A program made the translations under genes and the position numbers. Of a DNA stretch of 64,000 nucleotides, positions 38,133 to 59,730 are shown in pieces. The notes under the pieces were generated by a model, which worked only from the letters and a program-made list of their open reading frames with translations, ran no database searches and had not been told where the DNA came from. The DNA is from Styela clava (taxonomy: Eukaryota), in the NCBI RefSeq assembly GCF_964204865.1, contig NC_135257.1, forward strand, positions 15,872,001-15,936,000, in the 5' to 3' direction. The first letter of the stretch is position 1; every line of letters begins with the position of its first letter.

Positions 38133-41100
38133 ATGATGGAATATGCATCAGTTTGTACGACTGTCGTTTTGTTTTTGATTCTGACTGAAATTTCTGAAGG
38201 TAAACACCTAGTATTTCTAGCGTTATTGTTGCAGAAGATACAGCAAGGTCTGACTGCAACTGGTTATTAGATATATATGAGCAGAAAGTTTTATTATAAA
38301 TATATACATATAATGTTTTCAGTGAGAACTGCATCAACTCGAAACTTTCAATTTCTTCATTGCAAATACAGAAGAGCTCGATATTCTCGTTTCAACCCAC
38401 TTGACATGTCGCGATCAGATTGCTATTTTCCCAGGAGTACACAACGAACGAGGAGAAAGCTTCCCTCAGGTAGAACAACTTTTGTGGTTCAACTCACCTC
38501 GAAATGCCCCAGCATTAGGAAGGCTAAGATAAATAGAACGGTCAACCCTGCTACGATTAATTGTATTAAACTAGTCTTCACACAGGTTCCATCGGAATGA
38601 GATGTAGCAATCGATTGTTCTGAAAATTAGCAGAACTATTTCCGATCTGCTTAGCTTAATTACCGATGTCAAATTCGACCGCAGAAAAATAATAAAACAA
38701 TTATTCGGGTACATTACTTTTCAATCATATACTGATTAAATAAATATTTGTTTAGTTCGTGCAAGTTCTGGATTGTGTATCGACATCGAGTCCGAAGCCT
38801 TGTGTGAAAAATTCAGCAACAGAGGATTTTGTCGATCCTTTGCGGTTTGGATGAATAACAACTGCGCTAGAACCTGTAAAGTTTGCTCGGATATTTCTGG
38901 TGGTATGTATTTTAGAAACTTTGATTTCAACAGACAGAGTGCAAGAAAAATTCATTATGTTATGTAGCTAAGTTGAAATGATAGGCCCATTAAAAAGGGG
39001 TAAATTATATATAGAAGGCATGTCGGTAGATAGAAATGAGTGTAGGCACAAGGCAATAGCCCATCAAAACAGAATCCGTGATTGAAAGTTCTAGTTCTGT
39101 AAATATTAGAGCATAAGATGATTACTCATTCACTAAATCAAAGCTCAGGCCCAAAAGCGATAAATATGCTGACTTGAAACTCTGACTAACTCTGTTTTAC
39201 AGAAGCAGTCAGTCAGGAACTAATCTGAGTTTCCTGTACAATTGGAATCCATTAGAAGGGCTCTTTTCAAACAAGGATATTTTGTTTTCATTAGCGATCA
39301 ATATAAATATGACCTATAGTTGAATTGAAATCAAGCGCTATTACAACTGAATTGAAGAGGGGACAGTGTGTCAACACTATTTTTCACAGAAACATTATTT
39401 TCTTTTATATTCATGGACCAAAATTTGCAAGTCGGACTTTCCTCTCTTGTACAGACAATTAATAAATACACTGCTTACTGCTTATATATCGAGAGTAGTA
39501 CTGTAGTTAATTACGAAGAAACGGACTGTCGCAGGCAAAACTGATTATTAAAAGACACGTAAACAAATGATGGTAATTAAATCAATCCGTACAGAGTTTT
39601 TGCAATCCCATTTTCAACAAGTTCATTGGCACGTGCCGAACGACATTAATTAGCTTCACAATAGTTCCAAATATGGTCAAATGATAATAGATGTAAACAG
39701 CACAGATTATTTAGATGAAATTGCTATCCATCTTCAATAAAATCAAAACTTGCAAGAAAATTCTAAGATATTAGGCATCCACATTGCATTTTATTAGGTT
39801 AACTTTTTCGAATATGGGACGGCAGAACAGCATTACAATGCCAAAAGTATAGTTTATTTAACCATTAATCGCATCAAATCGTAAATAACGATACCAGGGA
39901 TTTAAATTGTGTTGGAGTTCAGAAAATTTCAAATTTAGGAGATGTAAACTAGGCACAAAAATAAGGGCTTTGACCCGATGCAGCAACCAATGAGAATAAA
40001 ATATAGTTAGTTACAGATATATTATGTTATTGTTCAAAATTCAAATGTTGACGCACTGGTGTCAGCATGATTGCGTTAGTAACAATTATAAAAAATAAAA
40101 TTGAATATAATTACTAAAAAAAATTAATTTACATACTCAGTTGTATCTATAGATATTTCATCGCCGTTATTGAGAAACAATTGGTCTGGTTGGGGAAAGT
40201 GGTCAGAATGCTCATCAACATGCGGTTTGGCTTACAGGCGGAGAAGAAGAACATGTTATTCAGTGGGTCTATCAACTTGCAGCGGTTCTACATTTCAATC
40301 TCAAAAATGCACTGTTGTTCCATGTCGAAGTATGTTTTTTTTTATATATCTATATAAGGAAATGGAATGTGAATTTATTTACATTTAGTTATTGTGAAGT
40401 AGATCAGCGTTGATATTCAAGTATTTGCAAAGTCCACGGAATATATTTGGAATCAGAATTTAAATTTTGGTAGTCTAAATTTAAGACTTCTAAAGTAGGG
40501 AGGAGAAGGTGACATTTTTCGTGGGCTGTAGTCGGAGTTCTTCCAAATTCGGAATATGAGTCGTCATTTCGAAGTCGATTTTGAAGTTGCCAAATTGCAG
40601 TGTCTCAGTGCCGGATCACTGAATCTAGTAATATTATATGGCAGTTATTTAAATAGCAACCAGCCAGATGTGATTCCGGTTATTCGCCGTTGCGGGGACT
40701 TTGAAACAATGTTGATTTATTTTGATTTTTACTTTTTGTAGTCGGGTCATACCCATTGCACAGGACGGTTGGTGACTGCGCGGACCTTCATCGCTCTTGT
40801 GAAGTTTTCAAGAAAAATCAATTCTGTAACGATAAAGTGTATCAAGATTGGATTAATACAAACTGTAAAGCAAGTTGTGGATTGTGTGGTACGTTGGACT
40901 AAGATTATATTTATTCAAGAAAATTGCGCGAAGCATGGTCACGCGCAGAAATAAAAGAAATTTCTTTTTGTGCGAAGTTGTGAGCGACTACCAAAGTGTC
41001 AAGAACGGCACTCCCGTAGTATGTGTACCAGATTATAATTAGGCCATAATTTCATTCCGATTTTCCTTGTTTTAGTTCTACTATGAGTTCGGGGACGGTC

Positions 41101-59300: not shown

Positions 59301-59730
59301 GTCGGAATATGAATAAAGCTCTTTGCAATTGATCCGTCGGCTACGATTTGGCCATTTTTACAGAGTTTATATTTTAGAAGGACCGTATCCAATCACGACG
59401 AGCAATAAAGTACACAAGGTTGATATATTTACCTATCTGGAAATAATTTCAAAGATTTCCAATCGAGAAATGTGCAAAGACGATATTCTTATTTTAAAAA
59501 GTATTCCCAATTTTACACAGGGCGATAGCGGCGGGCCATTTATGTGTCAAAGATGTGATTCCTGTGAGTGGTATCTCGCAGGTGTAACAGCTTTTGGAGG
59601 ATATCAATGTGGGTCACCGAAAATTCCTGGAGTTTACATGAGAATAACTCATTACGAAGATTGGATAAACGAAGAAGTTGACAAATATGAGCGTTTCGGA
59701 TTGGACTGCCAATATTATAACAGTTTATAA
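50369..59730 (+). CDS. Secreted modular trypsin-like serine protease B (paralog of A): signal peptide-ShKTx2-TSP1x3-S1 protease; 12 coding exons
   Basis: Exons 50369-50483 (signal peptide ...CILLLMTLWNMVKA|Q), 51035-51163 and 51367-51498 (ShKT), 51744-51893, 52602-52748, 53378-53524 (TSP1), 53659-53792 (RVAKR|IFGG), 54234-54343 (TAAHC), 56913-57057 (NDIAI), 57411-57516, 58960-59135 (VDTC), 59521-59730 (GDSGGP to stop). Protease-domain intron positions and phases match gene A. Probable 5'UTR intron at 50289-50355. Confidence 0.88.
50629..50703. mobile_element. 75-bp minimal hairpin element of the GG-terminal MITE family
   Basis: GGTGCTCCCGAAGTATGTGTACC ... GGTACGAATACTCTCGGAGCGCC; flanks GCTAAATG/GATTAATG; loop contains TTAGGGTTCGGG. 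Confidence 0.55.
52908..53000. mobile_element. Partial second copy of the 3679-4015 MITE family
   Basis: CAGGGTTGTGCAACATTTTTTGT...TATAACCAACTTCAGACATCTG aligns with the reverse complement of about 3930-4015. Confidence 0.6.
54527..56658. mobile_element. GG-terminal (Merlin-like) MITE with about 58-bp TIRs, interrupted by a nested element
   Basis: Left AGTACTCCTGTAGTATGCGAACCAAGGTGGCGGACACCGGAAAGTAGTATGTGTACTA versus reverse complement of the right end GGTACTTCCGTAGTATGTGAACCAAGATGGCGGACACCGGAAGGTAGTATGTGTACTA; 8-bp TSD AAATTATT. Confidence 0.85.
54588..56475. mobile_element. About 1.9-kb hAT-like non-autonomous element nested in the 54527-56658 element
   Basis: Left end CAGGGGTTCTCGAAC, eroded right end TTTGAGAACCTATT, CGGAGCCC subterminal motifs at both ends, flanks TACTAATT/TACTAGAT. 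Confidence 0.7.
57206..57290. repeat. Near-perfect tandem duplication, 41-bp unit x2
   Basis: GTTATAACATCTTTTCTTGGCAAAATTTTGTCC(A/G)ATTGGTA starts at 57206 and 57247. Confidence 0.9.

What the first reader, a model, noticed from the sequence alone, without database searches (positions are those of the whole stretch)
38133..59730. Tandem pair of ShKT-TSP1-trypsin mosaic proteases with reshuffled module strings
Seen: two adjacent secreted S1 proteases with intact triads and an S1 Asp. A is ShK-TSP-ShK-TSP3-ShK-TSP2-protease; B is ShK2-TSP3-protease. Each module sits in its own exon, almost all phase 1-1, and the protease-domain introns are identical between the genes. Established: ShKT is the fold of a sea-anemone K+ channel toxin and is commonly fused to astacins, tyrosinases and peroxidases; TSP1 repeats bind glycosaminoglycans/matrix. 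Inference: I know of no vertebrate protease with this combination, so it may be a lineage-restricted, little-characterised family (defence, tunic remodelling or fertilisation) whose targeting region evolves by exon shuffling after duplication. This is the best candidate for an undescribed system in the window.
Basis: partly seen in the sequence, partly recalled or inferred. Interest (0 to 1): 0.75.

Follow-up and report, generated by a model that had tools for sequence, protein, structure and literature searches.

The report
Sea-squirt protease with spare activation exon
Two neighbouring sea-squirt genes are spliced into trypsin-type enzymes with strings of small binding modules, a layout already described in sea anemones; one is likely the counterpart of a gene active around the larva's sticky papillae, and the other has an optional exon that repeats the enzyme's switch-on segment and would give it a second way to be activated.

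Summary
Both Styela clava genes are real: the exon models translate exactly to RefSeq proteins, and transcript contigs join modules to protease. The architecture itself is not new: ShK2-TSP3-trypsin, gene B's exact string, is published for sea anemones and corals. A and B are not a reshuffled sister pair. They sit in different old subclades of an ascidian family (about 29 Styela loci) marked by a Cys-rich linker, a CxxC loop and a tail Cys. The true recent tandem copy (gene C, past the window) keeps B's string. Gene A is likely the ortholog of Ciona KH.L96.43 (tree 89/90, best exon match, NLK on the same scaffold), which is expressed around the larval adhesive papillae; this points to tunic or adhesive processing at settlement. 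It repeats protease residues 16-30 (10 of 15 identical, most silent sites changed), occurs only in B and C among 24 loci, and likely adds a second activation site with a non-basic P1. No earlier scan note matched. New variant of a known kind.

The parts
38133..48110 (+). Gene A (LOC120346648), 17 exons, 793 aa: signal peptide - basic segment - ShK-TSP-ShK-TSP3-ShK-TSP2 - Cys linker - trypsin
   Evidence: identical to P0194
38323..38469 (+).
   Evidence: no Pfam hit; role inferred
38756..43724 (+). A module exons: ShK 38756-38902, TSP 40153-40329, ShK 40742-40888, TSP 41344-41490, TSP 42005-42157, TSP 42242-42383, ShK 42714-42841, TSP 42986-43114, short TSP 43587-43724
44088..44233 (+). A linker exon: family linker C..RY..CC..C and activation site R|IIGG
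44661..48110 (+). A protease exons (His 44661-44758, Asp 45376-45520, 46408-46513, S1 Asp 47137-47306, Ser with CxxC loop and tail Cys 47916-48110)
50369..59730 (+). Gene B (LOC120345535), 12 or 13 exons, 566 or 592 aa: signal peptide - ShK2-TSP3 - Cys linker - trypsin
   Evidence: identical to P0187, P0189
51035..53524 (+). B module exons: ShK 51035-51163, ShK 51367-51498, TSP 51744-51893, TSP 52602-52748, short TSP 53378-53524; all phase 1-1
53659..53792 (+). B linker exon with first activation segment KR|IFGG (copy 1 of residues 16-30 = 53748-53792)
53914..53991 (+). Optional phase 0-0 exon: 11-aa Arg-rich spacer plus a second copy of protease residues 16-30 (53947-53991), preceded by Ala with Arg three residues upstream
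   Evidence: joint 53792-53914 in X2 and X5; RefSeq isoforms with and without; selection tests
54234..59730 (+). B protease exons (His 54234-54343, Asp 56913-57057, 57411-57516, S1 Asp 58960-59135, Ser with CxxC loop and tail Cys 59521-59730)
24294..33006 (+). Upstream neighbour: MAPK-family kinase with a TQE activation loop, read as NLK; used as synteny marker
   Evidence: TQE = NLK is recalled, not from a call

Best explanation
Genes A and B are spliced trypsin-type zymogens of an old ascidian family, predicted to be secreted and likely held on tunic or adhesive matrix by their ShK/TSP1 strings, where they would cut matrix or glue precursors after Arg/Lys around larval settlement, and B's optional exon likely adds a second activation site. 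Shown: gene structure, splicing, intact triad with Asp189, the family marks, both B isoforms, and the protein-level conservation of the repeated segment. Inferred: (1) a cut at R|I frees Ile16 while the module string stays attached through the linker disulfide, so the active enzyme stays tethered; (2) the extra linker, loop and tail cysteines clamp the linker to the back of the protease; (3) A is the counterpart of Ciona KH.L96.43 and acts in the epidermis around the papillae; (4) in B's long isoform the second copy supplies the first beta-strand and a spare Ile16-Phe17-x-Gly19 start behind Ala. It would be switched on by a non-trypsin activator, or in two steps (cut after Arg-3, then removal of a dipeptide), and trypsin-type cuts in the Arg-rich spacer would switch off enzyme activated at the first site.
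For: Splicing and exact RefSeq match. Linker CC in 37 of 37 long-enough motif proteins and tail Cys in 49 of 49; the two-Cys loop in 49 of 105 parsed Ser loops and no Cys in the other 56. KH.L96.43 is P0197, a family member with TSP2-ShK-TSP2 by eye, expressed in cells around and between the three papillae (PMC10962819). A groups with it at 90/79 and 89/90. A's last exon is its best exon match among spliced family loci (83 bits against 76). Ciona NLK (KH.L96.106) lies on the same scaffold, and an NLK-like gene lies about 5 kb upstream of A. Cassette: 10 of 15 residues identical, 27 of 45 nt, pS 0.83 against pN 0.28 (Fisher p 0.008); BLOSUM 51-53 in B and C against at most 6 in the other 22 of 24 loci; at most P 0.013 if the copy were neutral; DNA likeness no better than shuffles (32 against maximum 43). 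Pfam's trypsin model starts in register on copy 2 in the long isoform. Models keep a good protease core with the insert looped out. Other members also have a non-basic P1 (P0197, P0202, P0204).
Against: No substrate, activity or localisation is known for any member, and no expression data by tissue or stage were obtained for A or B. Orthology support is moderate, Ciona paralogs are thinly sampled, and KH numbers do not show adjacency. L96.43 has a non-basic P1 and a shorter string than A; Pfam did not call its ShK at E 0.001. B lies in another subclade, so the papilla pattern need not apply to it. The cassette tests rest on 15 codons and were chosen after seeing the data. The cassette is absent from B's ortholog P0198 as predicted, so there is no cross-species support. 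Both models inherit the gap position from my alignments. The X5 contig carries C-type letters at 51806-51813, so the junction cannot be assigned to B or C, and the skip joint was inferred from contig ends and RefSeq, not seen in the listed rows. The two-step tryptase route is itself disputed (PMC7957558).
Confidence: 0.5

Rival explanations
1. They are immune or wound-cascade proteases that activate phenol oxidases such as tuphoxin (TSP1/EGF-tyrosinase) during tunic hardening and defence.
For: Tuphoxin carries TSP1 and EGF modules and appears to be proteolytically processed (PMC9395347 passages). The family uses the same modules. Varied P1 residues suit a cascade.
Against: No link to blood cells was found. 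The only expression datum is larval epidermal. The database names 'melanization protease' and 'plasminogen-like' are automatic and disagree between isoforms.
Confidence: 0.2
2. The B cassette makes an inactive or unstable decoy isoform, or is tolerated splicing noise, and does not provide a second activation route.
For: Its P1 is Ala and Gly18 is replaced. The 11-aa spacer matches nothing. It is found in 2 of 24 loci, which are near-copies. The insert has low model confidence. The copy's last five residues must be kept simply to complete the strand.
Against: Ile16, Phe17 and Gly19 of the copy are kept (the first two through silent changes), which a decoy or noise exon would not need. A neutral copy gives P at most 0.013. 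Inclusion-branch contig depth is 94 against 193 upstream.
Confidence: 0.4
3. They are sperm or egg-coat proteases, like the TSP1-bearing Tast astacins, acrosin and spermosin.
For: Ascidian fertilisation uses TSP1-tethered and trypsin-type enzymes (passages of PMC9265791 and PMC11673157).
Against: The known sperm trypsins carry CUB or Pro-rich parts in those passages, and ShK does not occur in the review. The likely ortholog of A is larval epidermal.
Confidence: 0.1
4. They are defensive or digestive secretions whose ShK modules block K+ channels, as proposed for anthozoan ShK-TSR-trypsins, and possibly their true orthologs.
For: Same string as Aiptasia and Stylophora proteins. The authors suggested toxin or feeding roles.
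Against: Three modules tested against PDB match ShKT-fold domains only weakly; the anemone toxin appears once, at E 1.7. No cnidarian appears among motif or linker hits. ShK-trypsin pairing is reported to arise repeatedly.
Confidence: 0.12

Closest known systems
Anthozoan ShK-TSR-trypsins (Ap_Trypsin-like, AIPGENE1852/KXJ28164.1; Neubauer 2017, PMC5446238; Babonis 2019 preprint 10.1101/645952)
   Same: Same three domains. ShK-ShK-TSRx3-trypsin equals gene B's string; interleaved forms exist; ShK domains sit in single exons.
   Different: No cnidarian came up with the ascidian linker or CxxC loop, so convergence is likelier. Their sequences were not obtained, so this was not tested directly.
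Ciona KH.L96.43 (XP_002122462.1; Johnson 2024, PMC10962819)
   Same: Same family marks; matches the last five modules of A's string; groups with A; NLK on the same scaffold.
   Different: Shorter string and non-basic P1. Published only as a cell marker with TSP1 and trypsin domains; ShK and the family are not mentioned in the passages seen.
Mosaic S1A zymogens (plasma kallikrein/FXI, enteropeptidase, matriptase, acrosin)
   Same: Fold (TM to target up to 0.89), triad, Asp189, R|I activation, light chain held by a disulfide (inferred).
   Different: Different modules. They lack the two-Cys loop. No duplicated activation exon found in one search.
Tast astacins and tuphoxins of ascidians
   Same: Tunicate enzymes carrying TSP1 strings for work at coats or tunic.
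   Different: Different catalytic domains.
Mast-cell beta-tryptase processing (PMC7957558)
   Same: Self-cut followed by dipeptide removal is a precedent for the Arg-3 plus dipeptide layout before B's second Ile (the Arg-3 position in tryptase is recalled).
   Different: Unrelated lineage, single site, no alternative exon; the route is disputed.

Membership tests
S1A trypsin-type protease | His57/Asp102/Ser195 triad | tested here: met
S1A trypsin-type protease | Asp189, Gly216, Gly226 (Arg/Lys pocket) | tested here: met
   B has Ala at 214
S1A trypsin-type protease | Chymotrypsin fold | tested here: met
   (gene B long form only)
S1A trypsin-type protease | Proteolytic activity | not testable with these tools
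   needs assay
Ascidian linker/CxxC mosaic trypsins (defined here) | C..RY..CC..C linker, two-Cys loop after the catalytic Ser, tail Cys | tested here: met
Ascidian linker/CxxC mosaic trypsins (defined here) | Single clade against other trypsins | tested here: inconclusive
   35 of 57 rows on one side of a branch, support 72, quick tree
Ascidian linker/CxxC mosaic trypsins (defined here) | Restricted to tunicates | tested here: inconclusive
   all named hits ascidian, but 17 of 49 and 4 of 16 are unnamed and the linker profile is weak (top 56 bits)
Anthozoan ShK-TSR-trypsin | ShK + TSP1 + C-terminal trypsin architecture | tested here: met
Anthozoan ShK-TSR-trypsin | Common descent of the protease domain (tree, introns, linker) | not tested
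   anthozoan sequences not retrieved; absent from hit lists
KH.L96.43 ortholog group (gene A) | Tree grouping, best match, synteny | tested here: met
   89/90; moderate strength
KH.L96.43 ortholog group (gene A) | Peri-papillary larval expression | not testable with these tools
   known only for Ciona
ShK channel-blocking toxins | Close likeness to ShK toxin and Kv block | tested here: inconclusive
   3 of 5 modules searched; toxin hit only at E 1.7; no assay

The most novel reading that the evidence does not exclude
Alternative splicing of a duplicated activation exon gives one protease gene two zymogens. The short form is switched on by one cut after Lys-Arg. The long form has a spare N-terminus that needs another activator or two cuts, and a built-in off-switch loop. 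This would be splice-selected control of zymogen activation, inside a tunicate-wide protease family that works the tunic at settlement and whose ShK-TSP1-trypsin layout arose independently of the anthozoan one.
Probability: 0.3. Interest if true: 0.75.

Novelty: new variant of a known kind. Interest (0 to 1): 0.5.

Why it matters
The N-terminal insertion switch is the central control of trypsin-family enzymes, and a second, spliced-in copy of it would be a new way to rewire activation. It is testable with two recombinant isoforms. The family gives candidates for the unknown proteases of ascidian settlement and tunic building, with a Ciona ortholog open to CRISPR, which is relevant to fouling by Styela. 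It also counters the published view that the trypsin-ShK pairing was lost in bilaterians; an amphioxus protein counters it too (P0175).

Tried and rejected
Recent A/B tandem duplication with reshuffling: rejected. Identical introns as a sign of recent duplication: rejected as family-wide. A cassette in other paralogs: none in 22 of 24 loci scanned (29 family loci were found, and 5 of them were not scanned). An insert at the same place in Clavelina P0201 is unlike the activation segment and absent from RefSeq P0209, so it was read as a gene-model artefact. Expression ranking: A contigs had depth about 95-340 in X1 and X2 where B had 5-6, and B 144-193 in X5 where A's word share was 0.06; contig depth cannot rank genes, so this is only a hint of different settings. 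No listed holder is on record as RNA. ESM Atlas gave only generic trypsin clusters and no usable hit. The metagenome scan found no relative. The first tree was the quick version with 5 short rows dropped; P0209 was dropped from the last tree. The activation-segment profile failed and was redone. Literature: searches found no description of the ascidian family beyond L96.43; one search found no duplicated activation exon; searches were for the tryptase precedent. The library lacks most subscription papers, and the tryptome preprint's supplements, which could hold the anthozoan sequences, were not seen. Earlier scan notes had no bearing.

Full report
Observation. A's last exon matched Styela clava LOC120346648 at 98%. 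The final models translate exactly to RefSeq P0194 (A, 793 aa), P0187 (B, 566 aa) and P0189 (B, 592 aa). Contigs of runs guessed to be RNA show GT-AG joints at 15 of A's 16 introns and 10 of B's 11, including the joints from modules into the protease. So the modules and protease are one transcript chain. The triad and Asp189 are intact. Twelve of 14 module exons are phase 1-1. A has a further Arg/Lys-rich exon at 38323-38469.

Family. 49 of 198 stored proteins carry a two-Cys loop just after the catalytic Ser; the 32 named ones are Styela, Ciona or Clavelina and 17 are unnamed (isoforms are counted). All 37 long enough have a CC linker before the activation site and all 49 a tail Cys (the non-family control is blurred by multi-domain proteins). 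The 56 other Ser loops parsed have no Cys. A profile of the linker alone, run on 1.84 billion representatives, gave 16 hits; 12 named, all Styela or Clavelina, 7 of the 16 being query members. The profile is weak, so this is modest evidence. In Styela I fetched regions around about 30 of the 94 hits and found 32 Ser exons: 22 strict, 7 variant, 3 unrelated. Their module strings vary: TSP only, EGF-rich, ShK only, mixed, or modules behind the protease. The motif group forms one side of a quick tree at support 72.

A and B are not a reshuffled sister pair. Their proteases are 44% identical. B groups with an unnamed-source protein of the same ShK2-TSP3 string (P0198, 98-100) and A with Ciona and Clavelina proteins. 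The recent duplicate is gene C, just past the window: 94-97% identical to B over its 5' part, with the same string. A's string recurs in a paralog 15.6 Mb away (P0022). The shared introns are family-wide (15 of 18). Shuffling built the family's variety, but the strings here are old.

What is known. Neubauer 2017 (PMC5446238; passages and supplement table) lists ShK-ShK-TSRx3-trypsin in Aiptasia and Stylophora and interleaved forms in Acropora. Babonis 2019 (preprint; passages) notes trypsin-TSP1-ShK in four anemones, single-exon ShK domains, repeated origins, and apparent loss of the pairing in bilaterians. The architecture is therefore known. I could not fetch the anthozoan sequences; their absence makes convergence likelier but does not show it.

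Function lead. Johnson 2024 (PMC10962819; passages and supplement rows) reports KH.L96.43, a TSP1-trypsin, in cells around and between the larval papillae. Its coding start matches P0197, a family member. A groups with it at 90/79 and 89/90. Searching Styela with P0197, A's last exon is the best spliced-family match (83 bits against 76; one intronless trypsin scores higher by length). Ciona NLK is KH.L96.106, on the same scaffold of at least 112 gene ids, and an NLK-like kinase lies directly upstream of A (the TQE mark is recalled). Together these make A the likely ortholog. A tethered protease acting on tunic or glue at settlement is inference; no substrate is known. Passages on tuphoxin (PMC9395347), fertilisation (PMC9265791, PMC11673157), the Styela genome (PMC7540406), the Oikopleura house (PMC3390340), Botrylloides (PMC12212465) and peptidase regulation (PMC10707025) did not describe this family.

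The cassette. Runs X2 and X5 join 53792 to 53914, and RefSeq has isoforms with and without 26 residues. In X5 one contig ends 2 letters past exon 7 and another starts 6 letters before exon 8, which are the letters shared by the two routes, so both forms are likely present. B and C cannot be told apart there. The exon encodes an Arg-rich spacer and a 15-residue copy of residues 16-30. Ten residues are identical, six of them through changed codons; pS is 0.83 and pN 0.28. A neutral copy beside a conserved original gives this at most 1.3% of the time, and DNA likeness has fallen to shuffle level. Among 24 loci only B and C have it. Pfam aligns the long isoform from the second copy. AlphaFold keeps the core (pTM 0.84 for the mature long form) with residues 9-35 looped out and the second copy's Trp-Met leading the first strand; my alignments set that gap. 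The strand needs only the copy's end, so keeping its Ile-Phe-x-Gly start suggests it is used as an N-terminus. Its P1 is Ala, with Arg three residues back, the layout of a two-step activation such as that proposed and disputed for tryptase (PMC7957558; passages). I give this 0.3; a decoy or tolerated isoform is about as likely. One search found no precedent, within a library that lacks most subscription papers.

Verdict. Real and correctly described; architecture known from anthozoans; the ascidian family, the link to L96.43 and the duplicated activation exon were not found in print in my searches. New variant of a known kind, interest 0.5.

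Noticed in passing
window 1-21200 (+): 3' part of a Fat/protocadherin-like gene by eye: cadherin repeats, laminin-G-like and EGF pieces, membrane segment, long cytoplasmic tail. Two pieces gave no Pfam hit at E 0.001.
   Followed up: partly
window 24294-33006 (+): MAPK-family kinase with a TQE loop, NLK-like.
   Followed up: partly
L001-L003 (G000:C9:15942000-15958130): Gene C (LOC120345687), recent copy of B: 94-97% identical at the 5' end, about 81% at the last exons, with an 8-kb larger intron and Ser at position 18 of its first activation segment.
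   Followed up: yes
window 41026-41170, 54525-54592, 56476-56660: Short repeat family in the introns of both genes, with very high contig depth (8,000-25,000 per bin) in the laid runs; probably an abundant SINE- or MITE-like element.
   Followed up: no
G000:C5:11640133-11681255: Three family genes have Phe in place of the conserved Cys before the CxxC loop.
   Followed up: no
G000:C3:11381000-11450000: Subclade with the protease in the middle and long TSP/ShK tails behind it; in three of these genes no acceptor lies directly before the Ser motif.
   Followed up: partly
G000:C9:10873914, C3:11444363: Family members with an altered catalytic Ser motif, possibly inactive homologs.
   Followed up: no
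P0198 residues 33-70: The first ShK module of B's ortholog has a Lys-Tyr pair spaced as in channel-blocking ShK (spacing recalled); the Styela modules differ there.
   Followed up: no
P0175: Amphioxus protein with four ShK, a kringle and trypsin: another bilaterian ShK-trypsin.
   Followed up: partly
G000:C9:8152453-8153181, C2:27000739-27001581: Intronless trypsin domains in long open frames, possibly retrocopies.
   Followed up: no
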